64,000 bases of DNA, taken from the UHGV virus genome UHGV-0010228; one strand, written 5' to 3'. Shown here in pieces: positions 4,825 through 55,752 of the stretch. The notes below the pieces were generated by a model, which had not been told where the DNA came from, did not search any database, and saw only the letters and a list, made by a program, of their open reading frames with translations. A program made the position numbers and the translations under genes. This stretch comes from a virus. Positions within the stretch are counted from its first letter, which is position 1, and every line of letters begins with the position of its first letter.

Positions 4825-4876
4825 AATCATATTTATTTCTGAACTATATATTATTGATATGGAAAGGAAAAATAAA

Positions 4877-10242: not shown

Positions 10243-10533
10243 ATGAGAAACATCGAAGAGATAAATTATGATACTAAACGTTTATACAGAACAGGAAAAA
10301 ATGACGCTTCTGTTGATTTAACAGCTTTAAAAGCTGCTGCAAAAGATCCAGCTTTTGTATCAGTGCGCCATCAGATTAGGCGCACACTCTTAAAACTAAA
10401 GGATCCGAGAAAAAACGGATCCCGACCAGAAATGCTTCGAGATACAAAACTCATTAACGAATTTTGTGTAACTAGAGGATATGAACCTCTAGTTACAGAT
10501 ATAATGCTTTCTAGCATTATATATGCATATTAA
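10243..10533 (+). CDS. hypothetical small basic protein (96 aa, MRNIE N-terminus)
   Basis: ORF behind the repeated cassette. Confidence 0.5.
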   Translation: MRNIEEINYDTKRLYRTGKNDASVDLTALKAAAKDPAFVSVRHQIRRTLLKLKDPRKNGSRPEMLRDTKLINEFCVTRGYEPLVTDIMLSSIIYAY

Positions 10534-11585: not shown

Positions 11586-11645
11586 TTAGTATATTATTAA
11601 AGTGAATAAATACAACTCATATAGTATAATAAGGAGGAAAATACT
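11565..11645 (+). promoter_or_regulatory. repeated promoter/leader cassette, copy 2
   Basis: Near-identical to 10160-10242. Confidence 0.5.
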
Positions 11646-11843
11646 ATGAGAAATATTGAAGTCCCTAATAAAGAAAGAGCAACAATCTTAGTCAATATGA
11701 TAGATGCCATTGAATTTCAGGCATCAAATGGTTGGACAAAAGAAATGCTGACTGTTTATCTCGGATTGTGTGGAGAACTCCGTGTAATAATGGATGAATG
11801 GGAGCAAATCGAAAAAGATGAAGACTTAATTTTAATAAATTAA
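11646..11843 (+). CDS. hypothetical small protein (65 aa, MRNIE N-terminus)
   Basis: ORF behind cassette copy 2. Confidence 0.45.
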   Translation: MRNIEVPNKERATILVNMIDAIEFQASNGWTKEMLTVYLGLCGELRVIMDEWEQIEKDEDLILIN

Positions 11844-16267: not shown

Positions 16268-17386
16268 ATGTTTGATTTATATAATACATTAGAATCATAT
16301 AATATAATAGATAATGATTATGCATATGAAGGTATTATAGATAAAGTAAAAAATGTAGGTAGTACTATATGGGGATGGTTAAAGAAAATATGGGAAACTA
16401 TAACGAATAAATTAGGAGAATTAGGTAAAAAGATAAAGAAAGCGTGGGAATCTGTTAAAAACTTTATTAAAAATAGAGGAAATAAATCAATAGAAGAAGA
16501 AGATGAAGAAGAACCATATCCAGAAGAAAATGATGAAGATAATTTATCTACTTCTACATCTAATAAATTTGCTAAAGGTAGAGGTAAGAATATAAATAGA
16601 AGAAGATTAAAAAGTGATGATAAAGAAGAAGATAAGTCAGTAGTTAAAAGTTTACCAGAGCCTGAAAAGACTAGTAGATATAAAAGTCCTAAATTAAAAG
16701 GCGGCAAAGTCACAGTAAATCCAGATCCAACCTCAGATGGAAATAAACCTAGAACTCGTATAGTGCGAGCTGGAAACGGTACAAATTATAATGCAATATT
16801 TCATCCAGATGGGAGTTTGAATAGAGAGTTAAATATAGCTATGAAGTTACTTTTAGAAGTGGCAACTCAGATTAATGTTAAATCTAAATGGTACAAAGAA
16901 TTATTATCAGTATATAGTGCTGAAGCAAAAATTGGTGATAAAGTTGGCGATGCAGAAGATCTTGAAGAAAAAACCAACAAAATGCTGCAAAATTCACCCA
17001 TAAATAATGAAGATATTGACGATTATTTAAATGATCTTGAAAATAAAATTTCAAATAAAGGTTATATTAGATTAACATCTAAAATTCCAGGAGTTGAAAA
17101 ATATTATCAAATGATATATACATCAATTTCGAAATTACAACAGTCAACTGGAGTTATATTGAATCAAATAAATAAAAAACTTGGTGAATTTAAAAGTAAA
17201 CATAGTAAATATGAATTTACGGCTAAGAATAGTAATGGCATAAATATGGAGTATATTCGCTTTAAAGGTAGTAAAAGTGGTTCTGATATTCATAAGAGTA
17301 TCCTTGATAATACTAAAAAACTTTCATCATTATATAGTCGTATCATAAGCATTACTTCTAAAATGATAATATCACCAAGCAAATAG
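16268..17386 (+). CDS. MFDLYNTLESYNII-leader family protein 1 (372 aa), putative packaged/internal virion protein with AYE|G processing motif
   Basis: The first 60 nt of the CDS are identical to the 17442-18293 gene and the first 41 nt to the 24128-24979 gene. Lys/Glu-rich middle region. Confidence 0.55.
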   Translation: MFDLYNTLESYNIIDNDYAYEGIIDKVKNVGSTIWGWLKKIWETITNKLGELGKKIKKAWESVKNFIKNRGNKSIEEEDEEEPYPEENDEDNLSTSTSNKFAKGRGKNINRRRLKSDDKEEDKSVVKSLPEPEKTSRYKSPKLKGGKVTVNPDPTSDGNKPRTRIVRAGNGTNYNAIFHPDGSLNRELNIAMKLLLEVATQINVKSKWYKELLSVYSAEAKIGDKVGDAEDLEEKTNKMLQNSPINNEDIDDYLNDLENKISNKGYIRLTSKIPGVEKYYQMIYTSISKLQQSTGVILNQINKKLGEFKSKHSKYEFTAKNSNGINMEYIRFKGSKSGSDIHKSILDNTKKLSSLYSRIISITSKMIISPSK

Positions 17387-17441: not shown

Positions 17442-18293
17442 TTAATCTACAACTTCAGCTTTGACATCAATTGGTTCATCACTAGTTACTTCTGCTCCAG
17501 ATAGATATTTTACAATATTAACAATTATCTGATAAGATTTTTTTAAATTATTTGAAATATTATTTATATGCTCAGTAGCATATTTATTGAATGCAGCATT
17601 GTAATCTTTAGAATTCTCAACTGTTTTATTGAAGTTAATTGATTGGACTACTTTCATATGAGCATCGCACACAGTATATTGATTGTGTAATACAGTACCA
17701 ATACTTTTTAAATTGTGTTCAGATAGCATATAATCATGTGGGGCCAATTTCAATTGCTCACTAACAACACTATACGCATGATCACATCTATCCTTATATT
17801 TACGAATATCTAACACAATATTTTTACTAGATGATTCACGAAGAGCATCCGATTCAACTTTATTGATAGGTACTTCCCCACCCGTGGATGGGTCTGATGT
17901 TTTTGTGATATATTTACAAATCCCTGCTAAATATTTATCTCCCCCAACTACAATTTTTAAATATTTAGCACTGAGATTAACCAATTTTATTATTTTCTTA
18001 CCAGCGTGAATCTTGTTCATCTGTGTACTAGCAATCTTTCTACCTATTTTAGTATTACTAAGTTTAGATTTTAGCGTGGTAATTCCAGTTTTTAATACAC
18101 TCATAATCTTTTTTATAATACCAGCAATAAAACCAACTGCTCTATCTATTATTTTAGCAATTTTTGATGATGCGATCTTAGTTAATTTACCACTTGCAGC
18201 TCTAGCATCGTTATCAATTTCTAAATACCTTTCATATGCATAATCATTATCTATTATATTATATGATTCTAATGTATTATATAAATCAAACAT
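17442..18293 (-). CDS. MFDLYNTLESYNII-leader family protein 2 (283 aa)
   Basis: The N-terminal 20 aa are identical at the nucleotide level to family member 1. The motif is AYE|R. Confidence 0.55.
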   Translation of the reverse strand: MFDLYNTLESYNIIDNDYAYERYLEIDNDARAASGKLTKIASSKIAKIIDRAVGFIAGIIKKIMSVLKTGITTLKSKLSNTKIGRKIASTQMNKIHAGKKIIKLVNLSAKYLKIVVGGDKYLAGICKYITKTSDPSTGGEVPINKVESDALRESSSKNIVLDIRKYKDRCDHAYSVVSEQLKLAPHDYMLSEHNLKSIGTVLHNQYTVCDAHMKVVQSINFNKTVENSKDYNAAFNKYATEHINNISNNLKKSYQIIVNIVKYLSGAEVTSDEPIDVKAEVVD

Positions 18294-18387: not shown

Positions 18388-19086
18388 CTAAGCTAATAAC
18401 CTAGAAGGATCCTTAGTACCACCAGTTATAATAACCATTGACTTACTAAGGAATGAAATTCCGGCAGTAATTGATTTTTTAATATATCCGATATATGCAG
18501 TTAAGTTATGACTATCATTTGACTCATTGTATGAACGCTTAGCCTGAACAGCTTTTGTTAAAGTACTTTCAATTGTAGAATCTAAGCTACTAAGAGTCTG
18601 GATACCACTTGAAATTGCAGCTGCAAACTTATCTAAACGTGCAGGTGAATATACATTATTAGCAGTTCTCTTACCAACTTTTTCTCCTAATTCATTCATT
18701 GAGGTTATGTAATTAGAAATTTTATCTCCATAATCTTTTGCATTATCCGCAAAATTCTTACCAGACTTTAATCTACCACTAACAGCCTTAATAGAACCAG
18801 AAATTAACTTTACACCTTTAAGTGACATCTCAACATACTTAATTGGTGCTTTATCATTAATCTTTTCCTGAATCTTAGTTCCGATCTTAGTACTCTTAAG
18901 CTTATTGCTTAATTTGCTAAATTTTTCCTTTAATCCGTTAATTCTGTCTCTGAACCATTTCATTACTGCGGCAACAACTTTATTACTTTTAATTGCAGAA
19001 CCTGCATTAGAAAGTTTATCTTTAATTCCTTCTTCTGCAAGATCGATCTTATAAGATTCTAAAGTTTCAATTACATCGAACATCAT
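18388..19086 (-). CDS. MMFDVIETLESY-leader family protein 3 (232 aa), diverged paralogue
   Basis: N-terminus MMFDVIETLESYKIDLAEE|G. The body has the same predicted helical character as the other members. Confidence 0.5.
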   Translation of the reverse strand: MMFDVIETLESYKIDLAEEGIKDKLSNAGSAIKSNKVVAAVMKWFRDRINGLKEKFSKLSNKLKSTKIGTKIQEKINDKAPIKYVEMSLKGVKLISGSIKAVSGRLKSGKNFADNAKDYGDKISNYITSMNELGEKVGKRTANNVYSPARLDKFAAAISSGIQTLSSLDSTIESTLTKAVQAKRSYNESNDSHNLTAYIGYIKKSITAGISFLSKSMVIITGGTKDPSRLLA

Positions 19087-22326: not shown

Positions 22327-22896
22327 ATGTTTGATCTATATAATACACTTGTTGCATATGAGGGATTATTAAAGAATGCATATAATAGTTATAAAACTAA
22401 TATAAACAATGCAAATCTTATGCGAAAAATCGAGAAAACTATTGAAAAGTCATCTGAGTTTTATTTGAAGTTTATTGGTGAGGGTGATGATAAAACTAAA
22501 GAGGAAGCTGCTAATTTTTTTGAAAAGTGGGCACAATTATGTTACTCCAATACGATTAAATTTAATAAATCAATATTTTTAAAAGGATATGTAAATAAAT
22601 ATGAGTATTTACTAAAGGGTGGATATGCTGAACGATATGGATTAACATCTGAAACCCAATTAAATCCGGATAATCCCATGATGCAAGATATATTAAATGA
22701 TGCTTATCTTGGAATTATTGAAAAGCTATCATATAAAGGTCAACTTGTATATCTCATGGGCACTCCAGATAACTATATTTATTACTTTACTGATGATAAA
22801 GGAAATTTTGTCATGAAATATAATGATGAAATGTTGGATGAAATTATAAAGTACTATCAGAATAATATTGATGAGTATAATGCAAAGTTCAAATAA
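22327..22896 (+). CDS. MFDLYNTL-leader family protein 4 (189 aa; MFDLYNTLVAYE|G)
   Basis: Shared N-terminal motif and a variant of the promoter cassette. Confidence 0.5.
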   Translation: MFDLYNTLVAYEGLLKNAYNSYKTNINNANLMRKIEKTIEKSSEFYLKFIGEGDDKTKEEAANFFEKWAQLCYSNTIKFNKSIFLKGYVNKYEYLLKGGYAERYGLTSETQLNPDNPMMQDILNDAYLGIIEKLSYKGQLVYLMGTPDNYIYYFTDDKGNFVMKYNDEMLDEIIKYYQNNIDEYNAKFK

Positions 22897-22910: not shown

Positions 22911-23405
22911 ATGAATGATATAATAGTAATGGAAGGATTAATTTCTAAAATGAGAAATCGTTTAAAATTGAAAAAGATTAAAAAGAATTCTGCACCTTAT
23001 AAAGAAATAACTCATGATGAATTTATAAAAAATTATTTAAATAAAATTAAAAAATGCCAAAATTTAATGTGGACAAATATGATGAAATTAAAATCGAAGT
23101 ATCCTATGATAACTAAAATGATTTCTAAGCGTAGTGATAATGAAATGATAGTTCCGGTAAATGATGTTCATATAAACACTTATGTGTATTTAATAGATTA
23201 TGATGGATCAAATGTTGAATCACATGAGAAGCAATATTCAAATTTTGATAGATCTGAATTAGAACCAGCTCTATCAGAAATTGCTAAGGAATGTGTTGAT
23301 AAAATATTTGGTAATGATTCAAATATTGGTTATGATGAAGGTGGAGATTATAAAGAAGTCTGCTATGGAATTGTATTTAGAGATACTTTTATACATGTAA
23401 ATTAA
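22911..23405 (+). CDS. MNDIIVMEG|LI-leader family protein A (164 aa)
   Basis: N-terminus shared with the convergent gene 23457-24032. Confidence 0.5.
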   Translation: MNDIIVMEGLISKMRNRLKLKKIKKNSAPYKEITHDEFIKNYLNKIKKCQNLMWTNMMKLKSKYPMITKMISKRSDNEMIVPVNDVHINTYVYLIDYDGSNVESHEKQYSNFDRSELEPALSEIAKECVDKIFGNDSNIGYDEGGDYKEVCYGIVFRDTFIHVN

Positions 23406-23456: not shown

Positions 23457-24032
23457 TTAGTTTCTTTTTCCATATAAGATCTCGGACAATTCATCTGAAC
23501 CCATATTCGGAATTTGAATCACAAGAGGGCCACCATCCCAATCTCCACCATATTCGTATTTCATATTATCGATACCATATTTATCAATTGCCGATTCAAT
23601 AATCATATCAATTGCTTTCCACGTCTGATTATATCTAGGATCATCGCCCCATTCTCGAACATTTATAGATTTATCATATTTTAGTATTTCATAAATGTCA
23701 TAATCTATAATGGTATATTCAATATTATTGTCATATGTTGATAATACATTTTCGTTTTCGACATATCCAACTAATTTAAATATATATTTAGCTTCTGGGT
23801 ATTTCTTTATAAGATTATTATATTCTCTTTTAACTTCATTATATATCTTAATAAATATAGGTTTATATTTAGATCTAAATTCATCTAAAGATATATTTTT
23901 AATATTATTAGATTTAGAATTATTATTAATATATCTAGATTTAGTCTGATTATTAGTAGCGTAAGCCTTATTTTTATTTATTTTATCTCTTAATCTCTTT
24001 ATTAATCCTTCCATTACTATTATATCATTCAT
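23457..24032 (-). CDS. MNDIIVMEG|LI-leader family protein B (191 aa)
   Basis: Preceded on the minus strand by the same promoter cassette as the MFDLY genes. Confidence 0.5.
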   Translation of the reverse strand: MNDIIVMEGLIKRLRDKINKNKAYATNNQTKSRYINNNSKSNNIKNISLDEFRSKYKPIFIKIYNEVKREYNNLIKKYPEAKYIFKLVGYVENENVLSTYDNNIEYTIIDYDIYEILKYDKSINVREWGDDPRYNQTWKAIDMIIESAIDKYGIDNMKYEYGGDWDGGPLVIQIPNMGSDELSEILYGKRN

Positions 24033-24127: not shown

Positions 24128-24979
24128 TTATATTGCCATCATCTTTGCAATTTCATCTGGGTTAAGAATTTTAATTTTAGTCATAGTCGTAAGTGTCCAT
24201 TTACATAAATTTGAAATTTGTGCGGTTATATTTTTTAGCGCTTTAGTATATTCATCCGTTAATTCATGAATATTCTCAAATTTAGTTACTCGATTTTCAA
24301 TCACTTTAAATTCATATACACATTTCATTATATTTGTATATACAGCTTTATACTCATCGAGTGAATCGACTAAATCCACCTCAAGAGTAAAAGTGTCAAC
24401 TTCATCAAGAGCATTATTAAGTCTGTTAATAATTACTGGAGCTGACTTTGTATCATAATGAATAAGATAGTCTCTTACATCAGCTTCAAACTTTCCAGTT
24501 TTATATAATTCATTGGGATTATCTAAAAATTTTACATAATTTCGGGTATATTGAAGAGTTTCTCTTAGCCATTTATTTGTCTGTTTAAGTTCATACTTTA
24601 TTTTATCAGTCAAAGTTTTAATTTTTTCTTTCTCTTCTTTTCGAGTTCTTTCCACTTCATCAACTATATTACGTCTCTTTCTGTTATTTACTCTTTTTTG
24701 TTCATTCGGTTTATTATCTTCATTACCTCTAGTTTCACTCTCATTCATTTTTTCATTCGTCTTACCTTTCATATTCTTTATCATTAAATATACTTTCTTT
24801 ATCTTTCTACCTAATAATATAAATCCATTCTTTATTCCTTCCCATATCTTCTTTATAACAGACCATATACCTTTACCTACATTCTTTACTTTATCTATGA
24901 TACCTTCATAAGAGGGTTCTAATTCTCCCCCCCCCCCAATTATATTATATGATTCTAATGTATTATATAAATCAAACAT
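24128..24979 (-). CDS. MFDLYNTLESYNII-leader family protein 5 (283 aa) with a GGGG insertion encoded by a G11 tract
   Basis: The first 41 nt are identical to family member 1. DNDYAY is replaced by GGGGELEPSY, followed by the shared EGIIDKVKNVG. The gene is probably co-transcribed with the protease gene upstream. Confidence 0.55.
   Translation of the reverse strand: MFDLYNTLESYNIIGGGGELEPSYEGIIDKVKNVGKGIWSVIKKIWEGIKNGFILLGRKIKKVYLMIKNMKGKTNEKMNESETRGNEDNKPNEQKRVNNRKRRNIVDEVERTRKEEKEKIKTLTDKIKYELKQTNKWLRETLQYTRNYVKFLDNPNELYKTGKFEADVRDYLIHYDTKSAPVIINRLNNALDEVDTFTLEVDLVDSLDEYKAVYTNIMKCVYEFKVIENRVTKFENIHELTDEYTKALKNITAQISNLCKWTLTTMTKIKILNPDEIAKMMAI
24927..24937. repeat. C11/G11 homopolymer inside coding sequence (candidate slipped-strand contingency site)
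   Basis: Eleven consecutive C on the plus strand in a genome that is about 30% GC. They encode GGGG in the leader of gene 24128-24979. Confidence 0.6.
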
Positions 24980-24991
24980 TATAATACCTCC

Positions 24992-25849
24992 TTAGAGATT
25001 CTTCATGAAGTCCATAATTTCACGATTATATTTTAATTCTGGCTTTACAAAGATTCTACCTTCATCAGTTCTCATTGTAATCATATTAGAAGATCTATCA
25101 TATGCAACAGATTCTAGAGCTGGATTCATCTCATCAATAACCCTATTAACTCTTTCAGACTTACTTAATACTATATCAGTAAATGATTCCATGACAGTTT
25201 CGAATTTATTTTTAGATACAATATTCTTAACTGGAATATCCATGTCCATATATGCATTAGAATGTGATGGTAAGTATACTCTATCGTAGCAAACCAATCT
25301 ACCAGGACCCATAACATCTATTGTGCCATCAGGGTTTTTTCTCTGAGGTACTAACGATCTAGCAGAAAATGCTCCTCTAATGCCTTGTAATATATTTCTC
25401 ATAAATTTATATCCAGGAGATCCAACACCTTCATCAAGCGTCTCTACAACACCATGGAGTTCTTTACCTCTCCACTCTAATGATTTAATAATATGAGAGC
25501 AATTATTAGGATCTATATTAGCAATTCTCTCCAATGAAACTTCACCAGTTGTTGGAATTGGATGTCCTGCTTCGCCTGGCCATCCACCTGCTTTAGTTAA
25601 GAATTCCTGTACGAATTCCTGAGCTAACATAGTTCTTACATGATCTGCATTCCAAAGTCTTCTATTTCTATTTCTTCCATAGAAATCCTGTAAGCAAGTT
25701 GAGAATCTTAAGTAATTAAGTCCATTTTCATTTTCAACATGTTTGAGTATTTCTATATTATCATTCTGTGGCATAGCAGCTTCCATTACCACATAATAAT
25801 CTAAATAACGTTCATCATTAGGATTAAATTTCGGCATAATGATAAACAC
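24992..25849 (-). CDS. putative prohead maturation protease (T4 gp21 / phiKZ gp175-like)
   Basis: GEAGHPIP and GIRGAFSARSL blocks are reminiscent of the His and Ser regions of the gp21 family. It sits immediately upstream of, and is co-oriented with, a leader-family gene. Confidence 0.4.
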   Translation of the reverse strand: MFIIMPKFNPNDERYLDYYVVMEAAMPQNDNIEILKHVENENGLNYLRFSTCLQDFYGRNRNRRLWNADHVRTMLAQEFVQEFLTKAGGWPGEAGHPIPTTGEVSLERIANIDPNNCSHIIKSLEWRGKELHGVVETLDEGVGSPGYKFMRNILQGIRGAFSARSLVPQRKNPDGTIDVMGPGRLVCYDRVYLPSHSNAYMDMDIPVKNIVSKNKFETVMESFTDIVLSKSERVNRVIDEMNPALESVAYDRSSNMITMRTDEGRIFVKPELKYNREIMDFMKNL

Positions 25850-31504: not shown

Positions 31505-31723
31505 TTACAGCAAATAGCATATTCCTAATAATATACAAAATGCTGTACAGAAAATATACCATCCATTACAATAATACAATTTAGGATTATTAGCTATATT
31601 TTCTTTATCTACAAATTTTATAAGTATAATAGATGTTAACCATCTAAATGACTTATAAAATGATATAAATACGATCACTGCAATTATTAAATAGCAAGTT
31701 AATACTATTAATAGAGATGCCAT
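31505..31723 (-). CDS. small membrane protein (72 aa, 2 TM)
   Basis: Hydrophobic ORF. Confidence 0.4.
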   Translation of the reverse strand: MASLLIVLTCYLIIAVIVFISFYKSFRWLTSIILIKFVDKENIANNPKLYYCNGWYIFCTAFCILLGICYLL

Positions 31724-50187: not shown

Positions 50188-50267
50188 CTATCGTCACCTC
50201 TTAGTAAATTTTATTAAATATTTGTGCTCGCATATAAAAAAATATAAGTAAAAAGAAATAGCTGATA

Positions 50268-51884
50268 TCAGCTATTTCTTTTTAATGATTCATATAATTC
50301 AATCATCTCACATTTTGCATTTGGTTCACTAATTTCCATTACAGTTTCCAAACGCTTATCGAGATTTCGAATTAATAGATCAGTAGACCCTATATAAATA
50401 GAGCAATGATCATTAGGACCAAACATGTATATTCGTTCATGCTCTAAATAAGGACCATTAATAGTTATAACTTTTATTCCTATAGGATTTAATCCTATAG
50501 AAGTTCTACAGATAACTTCAACATCAACCCCACAATTAGCAGCTCGTTGAAGATCTTTGATTATAGATCTATCCATTAGGTGATTTACCTTAATACGGAT
50601 TTTACCTTCAGAACCTTTCCTCATCTGCTCTCTAATTCTTAGTCGTATTAAAGCTCTGGCATTATTTTTGACATTACCATATCCACTATTAGTGAATCTT
50701 TGAGCTATAATATCAGATATAATGCCATATGCAGTTCTTATAACTGCACTATCTGAAGATATATAATGCAGATCTATATATTGACCAGATGTATCTGCAT
50801 TATAATTACCAGTACTTACATGTGCAAATGCTTTTTTATCGGTACATGCTAAGAATATCTTACCATGTATTTTATAATTAAAGAATTTAGATCTAATAAC
50901 TATATTAGGATATTCTTTTCGAAGTTCTAGTAATTGTCTGATATATTCTTCATTAGGTTCTTCATTACCTCTAGCCATAACTTCTATATAGATAAATACT
51001 CGTTTACCTAATTTTGCAGCCTTGTAAACGGATTCGATAATTTTAGAATTATCTTCAAATCTATACAAAGTTAAGAAGATATATTTTATTTTTTGATGGA
51101 TACACATCTGGTCTATAAAGTTTTGAACATTATCAAAACTATCCAATGGTGTTCTATAAATATATCCTTTACCAGTAGATAACTCTTTAAAATAATCAAT
51201 ATTGTTAAATGAAGTTTCTAGATCATTCTCAAATAATTCAGGATGTTTTTCCTTAGTTAATTTGAATTTATTACATGCCTGAAGGACTCTAATATCAAAT
51301 ACGAACGGTACATCGATTTTATAGTTTTTAATGACGTTCATTATTTGTCTAGAATCATTCTCGATATCAGCATAAATTATAGCAATACGATAATCCTCAA
51401 GTGTTTTAGTTTTTGGATGTAAGTATTGTCTATCCGAAAGTATCCTAATTATCATAGAATGTCTTAGATGAGCATAATCTTTTTCTTTATCAACTTCTAT
51501 GAAAAAATTACGATAGATCCTAGGAACCAAATATAATTTATCAGGTTCAAGTTTACGAACCGTTTTATGATTACCCCATTCCGCTTTGAGGTCTATTATA
51601 TCTGGTTTTTCTTCCTTGAATCTATCGCTCATCATTATCATTCCAATATTGATCTTTCTAACTAACTTATATAGAGTCAATATTTGTTCTGATAATAGAT
51701 ATGCATTGTAAGTTCTCATTCTAATATCAATATGCTCTAAGATATTAGATCTTACAATATTAAAATATTTAAGAGAGGATAATATCGGAGTATTTGGATT
51801 TATACCCTTCATTAATATCCTCTCTTGAAATTCTAATGATATCCATTCAGGCACATGATCCATTGGAGGAACATATTTTAGCAT
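50268..51884 (-). CDS. ppk: polyphosphate kinase 1 (PPK1)-like protein, truncated relative to bacterial PPK1 (538 aa)
   Basis: NYKIHGKIFLACTDKKAFAHVSTGNYNADTSGQYIDLHYISSDSAVIRTAYGI matches E. coli PPK [52 protein letters not shown]. This block includes the autophosphorylated His. YLEHERIYMFGPNDHCSIYIGSTDLLIRNLDKRLET matches [36 protein letters not shown]. Confidence 0.65.
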   Translation of the reverse strand: MLKYVPPMDHVPEWISLEFQERILMKGINPNTPILSSLKYFNIVRSNILEHIDIRMRTYNAYLLSEQILTLYKLVRKINIGMIMMSDRFKEEKPDIIDLKAEWGNHKTVRKLEPDKLYLVPRIYRNFFIEVDKEKDYAHLRHSMIIRILSDRQYLHPKTKTLEDYRIAIIYADIENDSRQIMNVIKNYKIDVPFVFDIRVLQACNKFKLTKEKHPELFENDLETSFNNIDYFKELSTGKGYIYRTPLDSFDNVQNFIDQMCIHQKIKYIFLTLYRFEDNSKIIESVYKAAKLGKRVFIYIEVMARGNEEPNEEYIRQLLELRKEYPNIVIRSKFFNYKIHGKIFLACTDKKAFAHVSTGNYNADTSGQYIDLHYISSDSAVIRTAYGIISDIIAQRFTNSGYGNVKNNARALIRLRIREQMRKGSEGKIRIKVNHLMDRSIIKDLQRAANCGVDVEVICRTSIGLNPIGIKVITINGPYLEHERIYMFGPNDHCSIYIGSTDLLIRNLDKRLETVMEISEPNAKCEMIELYESLKRNS

Positions 51885-52048
51885 ACTGCGAAGGCTGCTA
51901 ATTTATCTCCGAATTTGAATATCTTACTAACAAGCTTGGTATTACCAAGAGCACTAGCCAATTTACCTACATGTGCTGTGGCAAAAGCTGCTACTGCAGC
52001 TCCAAACTTTGCAATTACCCTTACGGTTGATTTTATATTTTTAAACAT
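51878..52048 (-). CDS. small hydrophobic/amphipathic protein (56 aa; MFKNIKSTVRVIAKFGAAVAAFATAHVGKLASALG...)
   Basis: aaggagaaaaaag RBS before the internal Met. First gene of the small-membrane-protein cluster. Confidence 0.4.
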   Translation of the reverse strand: MFKNIKSTVRVIAKFGAAVAAFATAHVGKLASALGNTKLVSKIFKFGDKLAAFAVC

Positions 52049-52244
52049 CTTTTTTCTCCTTCTTTTTAGTTTTGTTAGAATCCATAGATTCTGCCTCATT
52101 AGCATTCTTTCCATATTTATTGTCCATAGCGTCAGTAAATCCTTTTGTTGTAGTAGGATCATAACTTTGATATAATCCCAACGCACCACCGATAATCACG
52201 AAAAGTTCAGCCCAATTAAGCGTTGTTATTTTATTGCGATGCAT
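52041..52244 (-). CDS. small membrane protein (about 67 aa; MHRNKITTLNWAELFVIIGGALGLY...)
   Basis: One TM helix plus a Lys-rich tail. Start uncertain. Confidence 0.35.
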   Translation of the reverse strand: MHRNKITTLNWAELFVIIGGALGLYQSYDPTTTKGFTDAMDNKYGKNANEAESMDSNKTKKKEKKDV

Positions 52245-52411
52245 AAGAAACTTATAAGAGCAAATCCAATAATCGCAAGGCAAACAATTGCTCCTGGAAA
52301 TGACGGTGATCGAACTGCACATTTAGCCAGTTCGCCTGCAACTTCGCCTGTATTGCTAGCAACATTTACTGCGGTATCTCCCGCGTTTTTAACTATTTTA
52401 GATACACTCAT
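52226..52411 (-). CDS. small membrane protein (61 aa; amphipathic N-terminus AVNVASNTGEVAGELAK plus C-terminal TM)
   Basis: aaggaag RBS. Resembles the 52663-53079 N-terminus. Confidence 0.4.
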   Translation of the reverse strand: MSVSKIVKNAGDTAVNVASNTGEVAGELAKCAVRSPSFPGAIVCLAIIGFALISFLCIAIK

Positions 52412-52413
52412 AT

Positions 52414-52644
52414 TTATAACTTCCTTACACTTTCTATCTGAGCCATAACTTCAGGCCCAAATAATATATCTATAGATATATTGATTAACTGAAGAATGAT
52501 ATTTCCTAATGCGCACGACACCTTATAGATACATATACCGAATCCGGTAATGATACCCATTCTTGGTAAATATGTTATCAAATATGCAAAGATAAATAAT
52601 ATTCGCTTACCAATATTGGTAAAGAAATTTTTACACATTTCCAT
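52414..52644 (-). CDS. small membrane protein (76 aa, 2-3 TM)
   Basis: aaaggagaaaa RBS. Hydrophobic. Confidence 0.4.
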   Translation of the reverse strand: MEMCKNFFTNIGKRILFIFAYLITYLPRMGIITGFGICIYKVSCALGNIILQLINISIDILFGPEVMAQIESVRKL

Positions 52645-52662
52645 GTATTTTCTCCTTTCTGA

Positions 52663-53079
52663 TTAGAGACAGAATGCAGCACCTGTTGTGGTATTTTCTT
52701 CTTCCTCATCATCTATATTTATACAGATATCTTCCTCAAATATCTCAATCGTTTCATCTTCATCGTTCTTTTTCTTATTTGTCTTTATAGAATCAGATAT
52801 ATATGAATAGCAAGTGCCAAATACAGATCCTATAATTCTGAGCAAGAATGAAATTGATAATAATGGTAATGAAACTATCTTCGTTGCAACCGTAGCAGCT
52901 TTCTGACCAACAGACTGTTTAGATTTAGGTGTTGATGCGGCTTTCTGCATAACCTTAGTTTTCTTAATAATATTTACAGGAGCCTCTACAATATTAGCTA
53001 CAGTATTTACAACTGCTTCTGCAATAGCACATATTGATGATACTATCGCTTTACCTATATTCAGAATAGACTTTAACAT
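52663..53079 (-). CDS. membrane protein (138 aa): amphipathic N-terminus, TM helix, acidic C-terminus
   Basis: aaaggaggtg RBS. AIAEAVVNTVANIVEAPVN repeats. SLPLLSISFLLRIIGSVFG TM helix. Confidence 0.45.
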   Translation of the reverse strand: MLKSILNIGKAIVSSICAIAEAVVNTVANIVEAPVNIIKKTKVMQKAASTPKSKQSVGQKAATVATKIVSLPLLSISFLLRIIGSVFGTCYSYISDSIKTNKKKNDEDETIEIFEEDICINIDDEEEENTTTGAAFCL

Positions 53080-53154
53080 AATTCACCTCCTTTCCGGTTG
53101 AGGGGATATAACGATTGATTTATTGATTTAGAAGGGAATCATAACCCTTCTCTC

Positions 53155-53183
53155 GTGTTACATTGCATTATAATAATATATTT
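53155..53183 (-). promoter_or_regulatory. conserved 29-nt upstream element, copy 1 (cgtgttacattgcattataataatatatt)
   Basis: Near-identical to 53771-53798. Each copy lies about 70-90 nt upstream of a minus-strand small-membrane-protein gene. Confidence 0.45.
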
Positions 53184-53247
53184 TCATAAAATTTATAAAA
53201 AATAAAGATATTGCTAAAATTAAGCAATATCTTTATTATATGTACAA

Positions 53248-53499
53248 TTATTTAGAATCATCTTTAGACGCATCTTCTTCAACTTCAGTCTCTTTGGCGA
53301 AATCGTCGAATACATTTTTTGAATCATCCCAGTCGTCGTAGAAAAGATACATTAGAGGTATCATTGCACCAGTAATACAGAGCTTATTTGTCGAAGGCTT
53401 TTTATTCTGGAATATTAGTGTTAGGACGACAAATAGAACGGCCAATACAAGACATCCAATTTTCTGTCCAGTTGGATTATCTATTACAGATTTTTGCAA
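53248..53499 (-). CDS. small membrane protein (83 aa) with acidic C-terminus
   Basis: TM helix IGCLVLAVLFVVLTLIF. C-terminus DDWDDSKNVFDDFAKETEVEEDASKDDSK. Confidence 0.4.
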   Translation of the reverse strand: MQKSVIDNPTGQKIGCLVLAVLFVVLTLIFQNKKPSTNKLCITGAMIPLMYLFYDDWDDSKNVFDDFAKETEVEEDASKDDSK

Positions 53500-53524
53500 T
53501 TTTAGTGTCTATCATGATTAAATC

Positions 53525-53707
53525 TCACTTTCGTTTAAAACTGCAAATATTTGCTGATTTGGTTATTACTGATTTTATAACACCGATTATAGTACGAACA
53601 GCAAACTTTGCTTCAATAATAATTGTAAATGCAGCACCTATTCCCATGATTGTGTATATTATTATCATTATAAATTCGCCTAAGCTACCCTGAGTATTAT
53701 TTTTCAT
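53525..53707 (-). CDS. small membrane protein (about 60 aa; MKNNTQGSLGEFIMIIIYTIMGIGAAFTIII...)
   Basis: aaaggaggaaaa RBS before the internal Met. The track ORF extends to 53785. Confidence 0.4.
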   Translation of the reverse strand: MKNNTQGSLGEFIMIIIYTIMGIGAAFTIIIEAKFAVRTIIGVIKSVITKSANICSFKRK

Positions 53708-53770
53708 TACAATTTTCCTCCTTTCTTTTTTAACTAAATTAAGATATTTTTTTAACATGAGCATGAGTTT

Positions 53771-53798
53771 CGTGTTGCATTGCACTATAATAATATAT
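53771..53798 (-). promoter_or_regulatory. conserved 29-nt upstream element, copy 2 (cgtgttgcattgcactataataatatat)
   Basis: See copy 1. Confidence 0.45.
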
Positions 53799-53880
53799 CA
53801 TTATTTTTTGTCAATTTTTATAGTCATATAAATAAGGGTATCAACAAAATCTTAATCTTAATAAGGAAGGAAGTGATAAA

Positions 53881-55752
53881 ATGAATGGTGTTATCACAAT
53901 GGCTTCCTCTTCGGCTAGTAGTTTATTTGGTAATGTAGGGTGTGGAATTAGAGAATTAATATTGTCTAAATTTCCACCAAATTATTTCAAATATACTAAT
54001 GTATCTACTGAATTAGCATTTAGAAATTTTAGTAGAGTCTTAGGGAGAAATTCATTAAACGAAATTCGTAAAAGAGTAAAGCCTTATATTGTAATACAAC
54101 CAGTATATCAAGTTCCTGAACAAGATTCTTTTCTACAGGGAATAAATCTTACTAAAAATATCGATGATTTAGAATATGGTATTAGTGGTAAAGAATTATT
54201 TACTGTACTTAAAGATGATAAATATGATTATAATTTAAAATTCAAATTAAATCGTGATAAAATAGAGTATGAAGTAAGAATAGCTGTTGAATCATTGCAT
54301 CAACAGTTAGATCTTTATAAGGCATTGCAGAATCATATTGTATGGGAGCGTAGTTATTTTCATCCTATGGCATTAGAATCCGTGATACCTAAGAATGTAA
54401 TATATTATATAAGTCATTTATGTCGTATGGATGTTGATGAACACCCTGAAATGATACCAGTATTCTTAAAGCATATGAATGCTGTTAGTGCAGGATATCC
54501 TATCACATATAAGATGAGGAATGCTAGTGCTACAGATGAATATTTTATGTATTATATGCATAATGTTGTAGTTACTTTCTATGACTTTAATTTAGATAGT
54601 GTAGAGAAACGTAATATGGTAGATGATCATTACGAATTATCATTTAGGGTATCTGCAGAATTTAATTTACCAGGATTATATATCATAGATGGTAATGTTG
54701 ATCATGCATATCAGATTAAGAGTTGGATTGAAAGTAAACCAGATATAAATAGTATATCAGATGCAGATACTGATTATATACCACTATTTACATATTCTAA
54801 TTTATGGAATAGATATCCTAGAGAGAAGAATGGTATGCAGTTGTATGGTACTACTATATTTACCACTGATAATAAAAATAGTAGATATCATTATGATAAT
54901 ATTGATATTGGTTCCGTATTCGACTTGGACCATACAAGAGTTATCAATTATTATGCATCATATAATAGCCTAGATACTATTATGCAAGTATATGTACTTA
55001 AGAATCAACATGAATTAGAAAGAGGAACGGAATTCTATTTTGATTGGAGTGCTATGGATGTAGTTATTATTAATCCTGATAATAAAGCAACTTATAGACT
55101 TATAATTTACATAGATTCTGCTAGATTTAATGAAATAATAAGAGATAAAATTGAAGAAACTTATATATCTGATAAATCTAAACTTAAAGAAAATAAGATC
55201 GATTGGATGCATATGTTTGATTCATATAAAATTCCAACTTTCTTATTGGATAAGGACTGTTTTGATGATCATGATGAGTTCTACATAAAGATTGATGATG
55301 AAGAACAGTCTGTTGGTATCAGTAATGTACATGATAAAGAATTTACAAATATTGAAGAAGCCAATAATAAACCATTCGGTATGGAATCTATATTTATTCT
55401 TTCAGTATGGGAATATATCTTCGGAGTTGATAGGGCTAAATTATTATTAAAGACTCAGAAGTTTGATGAATATAGTTATGGATACTATATGTACGATGAT
55501 GATAATGAAAAATGTTATATCACTAACTTTATTACATATAATCCAGAAGAAAAATCAGACTATTATGTTCAAATAATGTTTAGTTGGAAAAATATCTTAG
55601 GCGATAATTGCTTCGAATTATATGGATCTGATATATCTGATGATAATAAATCTGAAACGTTTATGATAATAGATGGAAAGAGATATTCTATAACGAACTT
55701 TGTTGATAACTATAAGACATCTCGTCCATCAGATGATATAATTCGCATATGA
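53881..55752 (+). CDS. hypothetical protein (623 aa)
   Basis: Long ORF with aaggaaggaag RBS. Confidence 0.5.
   Translation: MNGVITMASSSASSLFGNVGCGIRELILSKFPPNYFKYTNVSTELAFRNFSRVLGRNSLNEIRKRVKPYIVIQPVYQVPEQDSFLQGINLTKNIDDLEYGISGKELFTVLKDDKYDYNLKFKLNRDKIEYEVRIAVESLHQQLDLYKALQNHIVWERSYFHPMALESVIPKNVIYYISHLCRMDVDEHPEMIPVFLKHMNAVSAGYPITYKMRNASATDEYFMYYMHNVVVTFYDFNLDSVEKRNMVDDHYELSFRVSAEFNLPGLYIIDGNVDHAYQIKSWIESKPDINSISDADTDYIPLFTYSNLWNRYPREKNGMQLYGTTIFTTDNKNSRYHYDNIDIGSVFDLDHTRVINYYASYNSLDTIMQVYVLKNQHELERGTEFYFDWSAMDVVIINPDNKATYRLIIYIDSARFNEIIRDKIEETYISDKSKLKENKIDWMHMFDSYKIPTFLLDKDCFDDHDEFYIKIDDEEQSVGISNVHDKEFTNIEEANNKPFGMESIFILSVWEYIFGVDRAKLLLKTQKFDEYSYGYYMYDDDNEKCYITNFITYNPEEKSDYYVQIMFSWKNILGDNCFELYGSDISDDNKSETFMIIDGKRYSITNFVDNYKTSRPSDDIIRI

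What the first reader, a model, noticed from the sequence alone, without database searches (positions are those of the whole stretch)
51878..53800. Cluster of seven or eight small membrane proteins with paralogous amphipathic N-termini and a conserved 29-nt upstream element
Genes for 56-138-aa proteins are packed tail-to-head on the minus strand, each with its own strong RBS. Several share an amphipathic N-terminal helix (for example AVNVASNTGEVAGELAK, AIAEAVVNTVANIVEAPVN) followed by a single TM helix. Some end in acidic tails. Two transcription units in the cluster are preceded by cgtgtt[ag]cattgca[tc]tataataatatat about 70-90 nt upstream (53155-53183 and 53771-53798). I did not see this element elsewhere in the window. 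The cluster could be a holin/antiholin/spanin-like lysis module, a superinfection-exclusion set, or membrane-remodelling factors. Its size and paralogy are unusual.
Basis: partly seen in the sequence, partly recalled or inferred. Interest (0 to 1): 0.55.

Follow-up and report, generated by a model that had tools for sequence, protein, structure and literature searches.

The report
Early-promoter cassettes of orphan membrane genes
The repeated 29-base element is most likely the early promoter of a human-gut relative of Bacillus jumbo phage AR9, and the small genes behind it are unrelated, fast-turning-over accessory genes in a variable slot, not a lysis module or a paralogous family.

Summary
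The seven small minus-strand ORFs and the two copies of the 28/29-nt element are real. The interpretation needs revising.

**Promoter.** The first 15 nt of the element (TATATTATT-N4-TG) occur 9 times in the window against 0.74 expected. All nine copies are non-coding and point at a gene. They match the mapped early (virion RNA polymerase) promoter of phage AR9, AAATATATATTAT-N6-G(+1). The window also carries AR9-type late motifs and a homologue of the AR9 virion-RNAP beta' subunit. Only positions +2 to +13 are private to the two copies.

**Transcription units.** The cluster forms two predicted early units:
- promoter, A, B, terminator;
- promoter, C, D, E, F, G, a polyphosphate-kinase-like gene, terminator.

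**Variation among relatives.** In gut-metagenome relatives the A-B unit is present or absent. D-E-F is present, replaced by a 39-aa ORF, or absent. B (here) and E (elsewhere) are decaying. C shows an allele swap. More distant relatives place the same promoter directly before the kinase gene.

**The proteins.** They show no detectable paralogy and no homologues outside this lineage. Five have clear transmembrane segments.

**Function.** Probably non-essential early effectors acting at the host membrane. This is inferred, not shown. Lysis is unlikely.

The parts
53770..53798 (-). Repeat copy 1. It holds the predicted early promoter P1: core TATATTATTATAGTG at 53797-53783, with the predicted +1 at G 53783. 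It also holds the first 13 transcribed nt (GCAATGCAACACG).
   Evidence: Exact repeat. The core is one of 9 copies in the window against 0.74 expected. It matches the AR9 early promoter AAATATATATTAT-N6-G+1. It is conserved in L011, L012 and L034. The TTGACA upstream lies 16 nt from TATTAT here but further away in L011, so it is not a conserved -35.
53525..53707 (-). Gene A, 60 aa. One TM segment (residues 13-31) followed by a basic amphipathic C-terminal helix. RBS AAAGGAGG.
   Evidence: Called as a gene in metagenome contigs. Present in L011, L012 and L034. Absent in L013, L014, L015 and L031.
53248..53515 (-). Gene B remnant. ATG 53515 opens a 12-codon ORF. The remaining 83 codons are open only from TTG 53499, which has no RBS. 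The product would have a TM segment (14-32) and an acidic tail.
   Evidence: There is a one-base length difference relative to the intact 83-aa gene (ATG plus RBS) of L011 and L034. The same frameshifted sequence occurs in six further assembled contigs of this phage. B is not called by the gene caller in those contigs. Codon usage is still gene-like.
53201..53237 (-). Intrinsic-terminator-like hairpin (15-bp stem followed by a T run) that closes the A-B unit. It ends 19 nt upstream of repeat copy 2.
   Evidence: In L011 the stem is kept although its sequence differs, as read from the alignment.
53153..53181 (-). Repeat copy 2. It holds the predicted early promoter P2: core TATATTATTATAATG at 53180-53166, with the predicted +1 at G 53166. 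It also holds the first 13 transcribed nt.
   Evidence: P2 and its 87-nt leader, including the hairpin AGAAGGG-N8-CCCTTCT, are conserved in all close relatives, whether or not they carry the A-B unit.
52663..53079 (-). Gene C, 138 aa. N-terminal amphipathic helix, basic linker, one TM segment (68-86), acidic tail, conserved C-terminus GAFCL.
   Evidence: dN/dS 0.11-0.40. Homologues exist only at 71-100% identity, and a family profile found nothing else among 1.84 billion representatives. The coding region is 70-75% identical to L011 while the flanks are 94-100% identical.
52414..52644 (-). Gene D, 76 aa. Two hydrophobic segments (15-33 and 44-62).
   Evidence: Present in L011 and L034, where it has a GTG start. 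Absent in L010, L013, L014, L015 and L031.
52226..52411 (-). Gene E, 61 aa. Polar amphipathic N-terminus and a C-terminal TM anchor (42-60; Kyte-Doolittle 3.02).
   Evidence: It carries an in-frame stop at codon 34 in L011 and L034, so it is decaying there.
52041..52283 (-). Gene F, a putative gene. It is 67 aa from ATG 52244, which has no RBS, or 80 aa from TTG 52283, which follows AGGAG. It has a short hydrophobic segment and a lysine-rich tail. It overlaps the 3' end of E and the start of G.
   Evidence: Gene callers disagree on the start (80 or 67 aa). No divergent homologue was available to test it.
51878..52048 (-). Gene G, 56 aa. Cationic (+8), modelled as an amphipathic helical hairpin, with an invariant C-terminal Cys.
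   Evidence: AlphaFold2 model with pLDDT 67 and two helices. dN/dS 0.17-0.68. Present in every close relative.
50268..51884 (-). Polyphosphate-kinase-1-like gene. 538 aa from the ATG that overlaps the stop of G, or 514 aa from ATG 51812. It is the last gene of the P2 unit.
   Evidence: Pfam PP_kinase_C 2e-30 and PP_kinase_C_1 5e-26. NCBIfam poly_P_kin 5e-58, below the curated cut-off. dN/dS 0.05-0.13. Conserved in all relatives, and directly behind the early-type motif in L016 and L017.
50249..50284 (-). Terminator-like hairpin (16-bp stem followed by a T run) over the stop codon of the kinase gene. It ends the P2 unit.
53843..53854 (+). AR9-type late promoter motif AACAAAATCTTA, for the divergent 623-aa virion-protein gene (53881-55752).
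   Evidence: The same motif is present at the equivalent position in L016, L017 and L019, as read from the sequences. The AR9 late consensus is AACA-N6-TA/G.

Best explanation
The window comes from an uncultivated human-gut jumbo phage of the lineage that encodes its own multisubunit RNA polymerases (AR9/PBS1, Staphylococcus S6, Listeria LPJP1).

**The element.** It is this phage's early promoter, (R)TATATTATT-N4-TG, where the G is the predicted start site. By analogy with AR9 it would be read by the RNA polymerase injected with the DNA. The element also includes the first 13 transcribed bases. The promoter part is shared with at least seven other predicted early units in the window. The 13-nt extension is shared only by the two copies, because one promoter region is a copy of the other.

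**The two units.**
- P1, A, B, terminator. This is a self-contained unit of promoter, orphan genes and terminator. It sits just upstream of the extended P2 region.
- P2, C, D, E, F, G, kinase-like gene, terminator.

**The slot.** The space between the conserved late virion gene (53881-55752) and the conserved early kinase gene is a variable slot. Small, mutually unrelated, lineage-specific genes are inserted, swapped, replaced at ribosome-binding-site boundaries, and left to decay there.

**What is shown.**
- The motif is enriched and lies only in non-coding sequence.
- The motif matches the mapped AR9 promoter.
- The motif is positionally conserved in relatives.
- The genes vary in presence and absence among relatives.
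- B and E are decaying.
- C shows an allele mosaic.
- The proteins lack paralogy and outside homologues.
- The proteins contain hydrophobic segments.

**What is inferred.**
- The element drives transcription immediately after infection.
- The products insert into the host cytoplasmic membrane. C would be N-in with its acidic tail outside. E would be tail-anchored. D would form a hairpin.
- The products act there as dispensable early effectors, for example in exclusion of other phages, interference with division or the envelope, or evasion of defence.

I give the architecture and promoter reading about 0.75, and any specific membrane function about 0.3.
For: 1. **Motif enrichment.** The AR9-derived pattern ATATATTAT-N6-G, fixed before looking at this window, has 9 exact copies against 1.77 +/- 1.43 expected. 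The refined TATATTATT-N4-TG has 9 against 0.74.
2. **Position.** All nine refined copies lie in the 12% of the window that is non-coding. Each points at an RBS plus start codon 15-90 nt downstream.
3. **Match to AR9.** AR9's mapped early promoter is AAATATATATTAT-N6-G(+1). Transcription from it does not require new protein synthesis, and the authors attribute it to the virion RNAP (PMC5312081). The annotated AR9 promoters show the same TATATTAT block at the same distance from the G.
4. **Rest of the AR9 scheme.**
   - The ORF at 2326-3924 is homologous to AR9 g145, the virion-RNAP beta' N-terminal subunit (31.6% identity, E 6e-54).
   - AACA-N6-TA sits upstream of 13 large ORFs, several of them structural genes, including 53881.
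   - The same motif is depleted overall, 40 copies against 77 +/- 9 expected.
5. **Positional conservation.** The early motif occupies the same place upstream of the kinase operon in L016-L019, where the neighbouring protein is 43-54% identical.
6. **Unit boundaries.** Terminator-like hairpins lie after B and after the kinase gene.
7. **Modularity.**
   - A-B is present in W, L011, L012 and L034, and absent in L013, L014, L015 and L031.
   - D-E-F is present, or replaced by a 39-aa ORF, or absent.
   - L016 and L017 have no small genes at all; L018 and L019 have unrelated ones.
8. **Decay.** B is frameshifted here. E has a nonsense codon in L011 and L034.
9. **Mosaic.** W and L011 are 94-100% identical, except the C coding region at 70-75%.
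10. **Orphan status.** No match in Pfam, PHROGs, PADLOC, NCBIfam or PDB. The C profile finds only its own cluster among 1.84 billion representatives.
Against: - No transcription start has been mapped in this phage. The promoter assignment rests on similarity to AR9 and on motif statistics.
- TATATT is also a 5-of-6 match to a sigma-A -10 box, and copy 1 has TTGACA 16 nt upstream. Host-polymerase use is therefore not excluded for that copy.
- The refined motif was derived from the same sites it counts, so its count is partly circular. The a-priori AR9 pattern avoids this.
- Only 64 kb of a genome of about 223-256 kb could be examined.
- The junction of the A-B insertion maps about 16 nt upstream of P2 rather than inside the repeat. 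Recombination through the promoter repeat is therefore not demonstrated.
- Membrane insertion rests on hydropathy alone.
- The function of every one of the seven proteins is unknown.
- C and G always accompany the kinase gene in close relatives, which could mean a functional link that I have not tested.
Confidence: 0.68

Rival explanations
1. The cluster is the phage's lysis module (holin, antiholin, spanin-like proteins).
For: - Several products look superficially like holins: they are small, have one or two TM segments and a charged C-terminal tail.
- G has a very weak match to a PHROG holin family (phrog_2609, E 0.063).
Against: - Both units carry the early-type promoter. No late-type AACA-N6-TA lies on this strand in the intergenic regions of the cluster.
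- The neighbours are a kinase-like gene, baseplate genes and virion genes, not an endolysin.
- The only muralytic domain found is a signal-anchored glucosaminidase at 5410-6237, 46 kb away.
- The holin match appears in only 1 of 4 G variants.
- The genes are absent from relatives that must still lyse their hosts (L016, L017).
- Two of the genes are decaying.
Confidence: 0.06
2. The element is an ordinary host sigma-A promoter (a -10-like TATATT or TATAAT box) used by the host polymerase, not a promoter for a phage polymerase.
For: - TATATT is a 5-of-6 match to TATAAT.
- Copy 1 scores 11 of 12 against the sigma-70 consensus, with TTGACA, a 16-nt spacer and TATTAT.
Against: - The -35 box is not a shared feature of the nine sites.
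- The spacing of the TTGACA changes by 3-4 nt in L011 through a longer A run.
- The conserved positions (ATT after TATATT, and an invariant TG at a fixed distance) are not sigma-A features, but they match the AR9 virion-RNAP promoter.
- The window encodes a virion-RNAP subunit homologue.
- The simple sigma-70 scan finds no excess of promoter-like sites in this region: 16 against 16.2 expected.
Confidence: 0.12
3. The small proteins are one ancient family that has diverged beyond recognition, as the reader proposed with 'paralogous N-termini'.
For: - There is a loose shared theme at several N-termini: a K-N-I-(G)-K-A-I/V-like start in C, D, G and the 39-aa ORF.
- C and G share an (A/G)AF..C C-terminus, as read.
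- The best pairs reach only z = 2.7 (B and F) and z = 2.1 (C and D).
Against: - No pair exceeds z = 3 against shuffles.
- hhalign of the C and G families gives a probability of 0.7%.
- The architectures differ: TM first in A, B and F; TM last in E; two TM segments in D; none in G.
- The units are gained and lost independently.
Confidence: 0.1
4. C and G, and perhaps the other proteins, are functional partners of the co-transcribed kinase-like enzyme, for example membrane tethers or regulators of polyphosphate synthesis early in infection.
For: - C and G are found with the kinase gene in every close relative. G is translationally coupled to it: the stop of G overlaps the upstream ATG of the kinase ORF.
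- From my own knowledge, not tested here: bacterial PPK1 is membrane-associated.
Against: - Relatives L016 and L017 have the kinase gene directly behind the promoter with no small genes. L018 and L019 have unrelated genes there.
- C evolves much faster than the kinase and shows allele replacement.
Confidence: 0.1

Closest known systems
Early (virion RNA polymerase) promoters of Bacillus jumbo phage AR9, AAATATATATTAT-(6N)-G+1 (Lavysh et al. 2017, PMC5312081)
   Same: - The same TATATTAT block lies at the same distance (6 nt) from a conserved G.
- There are multiple copies, confined to intergenic regions upstream of genes.
- It coexists with the late motif AACA-N6-TA.
- The phage encodes a homologue of the AR9 virion-RNAP beta' subunit.
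   Different: - The upstream AAAT of AR9 is not conserved here. It is replaced by R at -1 of the block.
- Here the base after the block is an invariant T, and the G is preceded by T in all window copies.
- No start site or polymerase dependence has been measured.
- The phage is an uncultivated human-gut phage whose proteins are only 23-34% identical to those of AR9.
PeSL cassettes (promoter-early stem-loop) of T4-type phages, which mediate modular shuffling of ORFans in hyperplastic regions (Arbiol et al. 2010, PMC2839356)
   Same: - A composite of stem-loop terminator plus early promoter (53237-53201, then 53181-53153) flanks orphan genes.
- One close relative has the cassette between two promoter copies. 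Others have a single promoter and no cassette.
- The region is a hotspot of insertion, deletion and replacement between near-identical genomes.
   Different: - The promoter is of the phage-polymerase type, not sigma-70-like.
- The repeat is 28 nt, not about 100 nt.
- The insertion junction maps just upstream of the second promoter rather than inside the repeat, so recombination through the repeat is not shown.
- No mini-circles have been looked for.
Host-takeover module of Bacillus phage SPO1 (genes 37-60; Stewart et al. 1998; Mulvenna et al. 2019, PMC6873191)
   Same: - It is a dense run of small early genes in short operons, each with a strong promoter and strong ribosome-binding sites.
- Many are individually dispensable.
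- One product (gp56) inhibits host cell division.
   Different: - There is no sequence similarity.
- The SPO1 module is read by the host polymerase and lies in the terminal redundancy.
- SPO1 products are mostly soluble.
- Toxicity of the present proteins is untested.
Small early membrane proteins for superinfection exclusion (T4 Imm and Sp; lactococcal Sie2009). This comparison rests on my own knowledge.
   Same: Small size, one or two TM segments, predicted early expression, dispensability and rapid turnover between related phages.
   Different: No homology was detected in PHROGs or Pfam. No functional test exists. The host is unknown.
Leaderless class IId bacteriocins (aureocin A53 / lacticin Q family, NF033881)
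   Same: G is about 56 aa, strongly cationic, has no leader, is predicted to be all-helical, and has an IAKFG...GK spacing like the family.
   Different: - The score is 13 bits against a cut-off of 27, at E about 0.05, and only 2 of 4 variants match.
- A profile search of PDB does not retrieve the solved family members.
- From my own knowledge: the Trp residues typical of the family core are absent.

Membership tests
AR9-type early (virion-RNAP) promoter | Conserved AT-rich block ...ATATATTAT followed after 6 nt by a conserved G (+1) | tested here: met
   Both copies read ATATATTAT-TATA(G/A)T-G. The a-priori pattern has 9 exact copies against 1.77 expected.
AR9-type early (virion-RNAP) promoter | Many copies per genome, located in intergenic regions and oriented toward downstream genes | tested here: met
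   All 9 copies of TATATTATT-N4-TG lie in the 12% of the window that is non-coding. Each lies upstream of an RBS plus start codon. Only 64 kb of the genome was available.
AR9-type early (virion-RNAP) promoter | The phage encodes a virion-packaged multisubunit RNA polymerase | tested here: met
   The ORF at 2326-3924 is homologous to AR9 g145, annotated as a virion RNAP beta' subunit (E 6e-54). It matches phrog_2986. Packaging in the virion was not tested.
AR9-type early (virion-RNAP) promoter | Transcripts start at the G, appear immediately after infection, and do not depend on new protein synthesis | not testable with these tools
   This needs infected-cell RNA. The host is not known.
PeSL-like mobile regulatory cassette | Composite of a stem-loop terminator and an early promoter flanking ORFans | tested here: met
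   The terminator at 53237-53201 lies 19 nt upstream of P2. P1 and P2 flank A-B.
PeSL-like mobile regulatory cassette | The cassette is present in one phage and replaced by a single element in a close relative | tested here: met
   W, L011, L012 and L034 have P1-A-B-terminator-P2. L013, L014, L015 and L031 have one promoter only.
PeSL-like mobile regulatory cassette | The crossover lies within the repeated promoter/stem-loop sequence | tested here: inconclusive
   The single promoter of cassette-less relatives carries the immediate upstream flank of P2 (ATAAATTTTATGAAAA). That places the junction about 16 nt upstream of P2, not inside the 28-nt repeat. The upstream flanks are too divergent for an exact junction.
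PeSL-like mobile regulatory cassette | Sigma-70-like promoter | tested here: not met
   The nine sites share no -35 box. The motif is of the AR9 type.
Holin / lysis cassette | Genetic linkage to an endolysin and late expression | tested here: not met
   The neighbours are a kinase-like gene, baseplate genes and virion genes. The glucosaminidase lies 46 kb away. The promoters are early-type only.
Holin / lysis cassette | Match to a known holin family | tested here: not met
   The best match is phrog_2609 at E 0.063, for 1 of 4 G variants. There are no Pfam matches.
   All 21 pairs have z below 3 against 300 shuffles. hhalign of C against G gives a probability of 0.7%.
Aureocin A53-type leaderless bacteriocin (protein G) | Score at or above the NCBIfam cut-off (27 bits) | tested here: not met
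   13.1 bits, E 0.057, and 2 of 4 variants match. There are no PDB family hits.
Superinfection-exclusion / host-takeover effectors | Demonstrated exclusion of a second phage, or inhibition of a host process | not testable with these tools
   Only circumstantial features are available: predicted early promoter, small size, TM segments, dispensability and allele swapping.

The most novel reading that the evidence does not exclude
Jumbo phages that carry their own RNA polymerases may shuffle self-contained units of promoter, orphan genes and terminator through their own polymerase's promoter sequences. This would be a counterpart of T4 PeSL cassettes that does not depend on sigma-70. Within this slot, the conserved pair C and G would be early membrane effectors under inter-phage or host conflict. 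C is replaced by a 70-75% identical allele in an otherwise 94-100% identical genome. A plausible role is a superinfection-exclusion or envelope-takeover function specific to gut Firmicute jumbo phages.
Probability: 0.22. Interest if true: 0.5.

Novelty: new member of a known kind. Interest (0 to 1): 0.3.

Why it matters
- **Reach of the AR9 promoter grammar.** The AR9 early and late promoter motifs have so far been mapped in one cultured Bacillus phage. Here they appear in a family of uncultivated 220-290 kb human-gut phages. This gives a sequence-only way to split those genomes into early and late transcription units.
- **A defined variable slot.** Accessory genes turn over quickly between the conserved virion gene and the conserved kinase gene. 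Such slots are where anti-defence and exclusion functions are usually found. C and G are the best candidates for a functional test.
- **Limits.** The proteins themselves remain orphans. Nothing here overturns current understanding of phage gene organisation.

Tried and rejected
**Searches for the source genome or the full element elsewhere**
- Megablast of 6 kb against 50,697 phage records: no match.
- The 22-nt element in IMG/VR: none.
- Back-translated peptide scan of IMG/VR with the 623-aa protein: none.
- The element in GTDB genomes: none.
- A 19-nt version in JGI metagenomes: ten single hits in unrelated contexts, consistent with chance. Genome-wide frequency beyond the window could therefore not be measured.

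**Family and structure searches for the small proteins**
- Pfam, PHROGs, PADLOC and NCBIfam on all seven proteins and the 39-aa ORF: nothing significant.
- Family-wise scans of the four G variants: the holin match appears in 1 of 4 and the aureocin A53 match in 2 of 4, both at E about 0.05. Both leads were dropped.
- PDB profile searches for the G and C families: only chance hits to TM helices, or nothing.
- Word-indexed homologue search with G: two clusters only.
- HMM search of the C family against 1.84 billion representatives: only its own cluster.
- Cluster look-up for source names: none of the proteins carries a name.
- AlphaFold2: C has pLDDT 46 (two long helices and a disordered tail). 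G has pLDDT 67 (a helical hairpin). Both are too low and too simple for a meaningful fold search, so none was run.

**RNA**
- Rfam on the whole window: no family.
- Folding of the two leaders: not better than shuffles, z = -0.3 and +1.3. A structured RNA element was rejected. The 7-bp hairpin in the C leader is conserved but unexplained.

**Other**
- A late-promoter reading of the AACA inside the private 13 nt was rejected. The base required 6 nt downstream is not T followed by A or G in either copy (reading).
- One simulation script timed out. The tool's own shuffles replaced it.

Full report
**1. What is in the sequence**

Seven small ORFs lie head-to-tail on the minus strand between 51878 and 53707:
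- A, 53525-53707, 60 aa
- B, 53248-53499, 83 aa from a TTG
- C, 52663-53079, 138 aa
- D, 52414-52644, 76 aa
- E, 52226-52411, 61 aa
- F, 52041-52244, 67 aa (80 aa from TTG 52283)
- G, 51878-52048, 56 aa

G's stop codon overlaps an ATG of a 538-aa ORF (50268-51884). That ORF matches the C-terminal domains of polyphosphate kinase 1 (Pfam E 2e-30 and 5e-26; NCBIfam).

Clear Shine-Dalgarno sequences precede A, C, D and G, and a weaker one precedes E. B and the ATG of F have none.

All seven ORFs use codons like the phage's long genes. The log-likelihood ratio is 0.15-0.52 per codon. In-frame control segments average 0.54 and off-frame segments average -0.69.

A 19-residue hydropathy window gives clear transmembrane-like segments in five proteins:

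| Protein | Maximum Kyte-Doolittle mean |
|---|---|
| A | 2.48 |
| B | 2.45 |
| C | 2.03 |
| D | 1.72 and 1.79 (two segments) |
| E | 3.02 |
| F | 1.52 (borderline) |
| G | 1.41 |

G is a cationic (+8) amphipathic peptide. AlphaFold2 models it as a two-helix hairpin at pLDDT 67.

**2. The repeat**

A 29-nt direct repeat lies at 53153-53181 and 53770-53798. The copies are 93% identical and 617 nt apart. A 28-nt pattern that leaves the two differing positions degenerate matches only these two sites, with none expected.

**3. No paralogy**

None of the 21 protein pairs aligns better than its shuffled controls. The best values are z = 2.7 (B and F) and z = 2.1 (C and D). A profile-profile comparison of the C family (5 sequences) with the G family (4 sequences) gives a probability of 0.7%. 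The resemblance among the N-termini is compositional.

**4. What the genome is**

The region has no near-identical DNA in 50,697 phage records. The divergent 623-aa gene (53881-55752) is weakly similar to AR9 g251 and to genes of Staphylococcus S6-like phages and Listeria phage LPJP1.

The window also encodes:
- a major head protein, a large terminase and a tail sheath;
- a 532-aa homologue of AR9 g145, annotated as the N-terminal beta' subunit of the virion RNA polymerase (31.6% identity, E 6e-54).

An exact look-up of protein C finds it on 14 contigs, up to 223-256 kb long. Most of the samples shown are ENA or Logan metagenome assemblies, and one is named as a Hadza gut sample. The window therefore comes from an uncultivated gut jumbo phage of the lineage that carries its own multisubunit RNA polymerases.

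**5. The element is an AR9-type early promoter**

In AR9, 41 mapped early start sites share AAATATATATTAT-(6N)-G(+1). Transcription from them does not need new protein synthesis, and the authors attribute it to the injected virion polymerase. Late promoters are AACA-(6N)-TA/G (PMC5312081). The AR9 record's annotated early promoters confirm this layout.

Both copies of the repeat read ATATATTAT-TATA(G/A)T-G. That is the same block at the same distance from a G.

Evidence that the motif is functional in this phage:
- The AR9-derived pattern ATATATTAT-N6-G, fixed before inspecting the window, has 9 exact copies against 1.77 +/- 1.43 expected. No shuffle reached 9.
- The refined pattern TATATTATT-N4-TG has 9 copies against 0.74 expected. 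They lie at 4847+, 6270+, 10184+, 10583+, 11590+, 32380-, 39596+, 53180- and 53797-.
- All nine lie in the 12% of the window that is non-coding. Each points at a ribosome-binding site and start codon 15-90 nt downstream.
- The late motif AACA-N6-TA precedes 13 large ORFs, several of them structural genes, including the 623-aa gene at 53843-53854. It is depleted overall, 40 copies against 77 +/- 9 expected, as expected for a signal that is purged from places where it would misfire.

The first is the phage's general early promoter. The second is 13 further nt (GCAATGYAACACG, +1 to +13) that only these two copies share.

I found no function for the private part:
- It is not a late promoter, because the base spacing is wrong.
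- The leaders do not fold better than shuffles.
- Rfam finds nothing.

Another promoter pair, at 10184 and 11590, likewise shares a long leader and even its first codons. Copying a promoter together with its leader therefore seems to be common in this genome.

**6. Transcription units**

Terminator-like hairpins follow B (53237-53201) and the kinase gene (50284-50249). The predicted units are P1-A-B-terminator and P2-C-D-E-F-G-kinase-terminator. The baseplate genes downstream lie outside these units.

**7. Comparative evidence**

Close relatives were fetched through C homologues (71-82% identical) and through homologues of the 623-aa protein (94-99%). They differ as follows:

| Lineage | A-B unit | C allele | Between C and G | G | Kinase gene |
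|---|---|---|---|---|---|
| Window (L002-L006, L008) | present, B frameshifted | class I | D, E, F | yes | yes |
| L034, L011, L012 | present, B intact | class II | D (GTG start), E with a stop at codon 34 (F region seen in L034 only) | yes (L034) | yes (L034) |
| L013, L031, L032 | absent | class I-like | 39-aa amphipathic ORF | yes | yes |
| L010 | contig starts at P2 | class I | 39-aa ORF | yes | yes |
| L014, L015 | absent | class II | nothing | yes (59 aa) | yes |

P2 and its whole leader are conserved in all of these.

The replaced segments begin and end at ribosome-binding sites.

The window phage and L011 are 94-100% identical over 6 kb, except in the C coding region, where identity is 70-75%. 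The C allele class does not follow the genomic background. This indicates allele replacement by recombination rather than fast point evolution; dN/dS for C is 0.11-0.40.

The frameshifted B sequence is present in six further assembled contigs of this phage, from different samples, so it is not a sequencing error.

In more distant relatives, whose 623-aa homologue is 43-54% identical, the same early motif sits in the same divergent intergenic region:
- In L016 and L017 it lies directly before the kinase gene.
- In L018 one unrelated soluble protein intervenes.
- In L019 four unrelated proteins intervene.

The kinase gene is therefore a conserved early gene. The space between its promoter and its start codon is a slot that fills with different small genes in different lineages.

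**8. Orphan status and function**

None of the seven proteins, nor the 39-aa ORF, matches Pfam, PHROGs, PADLOC or NCBIfam at a meaningful level. Profiles of the C and G families find nothing in the PDB. The C profile finds only its own cluster among 1.84 billion representatives.

Two weak leads for G were not reproduced across its variants:
- a PHROG holin family at E 0.063;
- the aureocin A53 bacteriocin family at E 0.057, with 13 bits against a cut-off of 27.

The lysis reading is disfavoured for these reasons:
- The promoters are of the early type.
- No endolysin is adjacent.
- The only muralytic domain found is a signal-anchored glucosaminidase at 5410-6237.
- The genes are absent from relatives that must still lyse their hosts.
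- Two of the genes are decaying.

What remains is inference. Small, dispensable, early, membrane-directed proteins in a fast-turning-over slot resemble the SPO1 host-takeover module (PMC6873191). From my own knowledge, they also resemble early exclusion proteins such as T4 Imm and Sp.

C and G are present in every close relative and are under purifying selection. They are the members most likely to have a maintained function. A link to the co-transcribed kinase is possible but is not supported by the distant relatives.

**9. How the cassette arrangement compares with what is known**

The pairing of terminator and early promoter around orphan genes, present in one phage and collapsed to a single promoter in a near-identical relative, is the pattern described for PeSL cassettes of T4-type phages (PMC2839356).

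There are three differences:
- The promoter here is of the phage-polymerase type.
- The repeat is short.
- The insertion junction maps about 16 nt upstream of P2 rather than within the repeat.

I therefore say that this locus works like a PeSL or moron slot. I do not claim that it is a member of the PeSL class.

**10. Verdict**

It is an AR9-type early promoter in two copies, driving two units of unrelated orphan membrane genes in a hyperplastic slot.

The modestly new points are:
- the AR9 promoter grammar extends to a family of uncultivated gut jumbo phages;
- cassette turnover occurs at phage-polymerase promoters;
- C shows an allele swap.

Main caveats:
- No start-site data exist.
- Only a quarter of the genome was examined.
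- Membrane insertion rests on hydropathy alone.
- The host is unknown.

Noticed in passing
window 50268-51884 (-); L016-L019: A polyphosphate-kinase-1-like gene is conserved in all relatives and sits directly behind the early-type promoter motif. It is 514-538 aa here and up to 642 aa in relatives. Its NCBIfam scores are far below the curated cut-off (197 against 466 bits). An early phage PPK1 homologue is unusual. Its catalytic residues were not checked.
   Followed up: partly
window, whole (for example 719, 2301, 14789, 28541, 41486, 44419, 53843, 55762): The AR9-type late motif AACA-N6-TA precedes 13 large ORFs, several of them structural genes. It is about two-fold depleted overall, 40 copies against 77 +/- 9 in shuffles. 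This suggests selection against spurious late promoters.
   Followed up: partly
window 10184-10260 and 11590-11660 (+): A second pair of early-type promoters shares about 60-75 nt of near-identical promoter, leader, ribosome-binding site and first codons (MRNIE...). The two genes behind them are otherwise different (96 aa and 65 aa). This is another sign that promoter-plus-leader modules are copied.
   Followed up: no
window 16268-17386 (+), 17442-18293 (-), 18388-19086 (-), 22327-22896 (+), 24128-24979 (-); also 22911-23405 (+), 23457-24032 (-), 4405-4824 (+): These are real paralogous families. Four genes start with a near-identical MFDLYNTL(E/V)... N-terminus, a fifth (18388) has a related MMFDVIETLESY start, and several share a repeated ~50-nt upstream sequence (TTATACATTATATTAATATTATATA..AAGGAGGTATTATAATG). 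A second set starts MNDIIVMEGLI. They lie beside a prohead-protease-like gene (24992-25849, Peptidase_S77 E 9e-5). They may be head-internal proteins with a shared targeting or cleavage signal.
   Followed up: partly
window 5410-6237 (+), with 4405-4824 (+): A 275-aa protein has an N-terminal signal-anchor-like segment and a C-terminal glucosaminidase domain (PF01832, E 4e-13). It is preceded by a 139-aa protein with a hydrophobic stretch. This is a more conventional candidate for the muralytic or lysis function, although an early-type promoter lies upstream at 4847.
   Followed up: partly
window 53080-53153 (-); same region in L010-L015, L031: The 5' leader of gene C is conserved almost base for base among relatives whose C proteins are only 71-82% identical. 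It includes a 7-bp hairpin, AGAAGGG-N8-CCCTTCT; L013 keeps the hairpin through a G-U pair. Its folding energy is not better than shuffles. Its role is unexplained.
   Followed up: partly
C-termini of C (52663-52680) and G (51878-51898), and of the 39-aa ORF in L010, L013 and L031: C always ends in G(A/G)AFCL. G ends in AA(F/Y)A(V/T)C. The 39-aa ORF ends in (L/F)AF. A shared short C-terminal AF/Cys motif in otherwise unrelated proteins might be a sorting or modification signal, or it might be chance.
   Followed up: no
L007, L009, L010 (contig ends): Several metagenome contigs break within 10-310 nt upstream of gene C, at or near the repeated promoter. This is consistent with assembly-graph branching caused by strain-level variation in cassette presence.
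   Followed up: no
window 7606-7878, 7884-8087 (+); 31505-31723 (-): Other predicted early units also end in small proteins with strong TM segments (90, 67 and 72 aa; Kyte-Doolittle 2.3-3.0). Small membrane proteins are therefore a general feature of this phage's early genes, not a peculiarity of the flagged cluster.
   Followed up: partly
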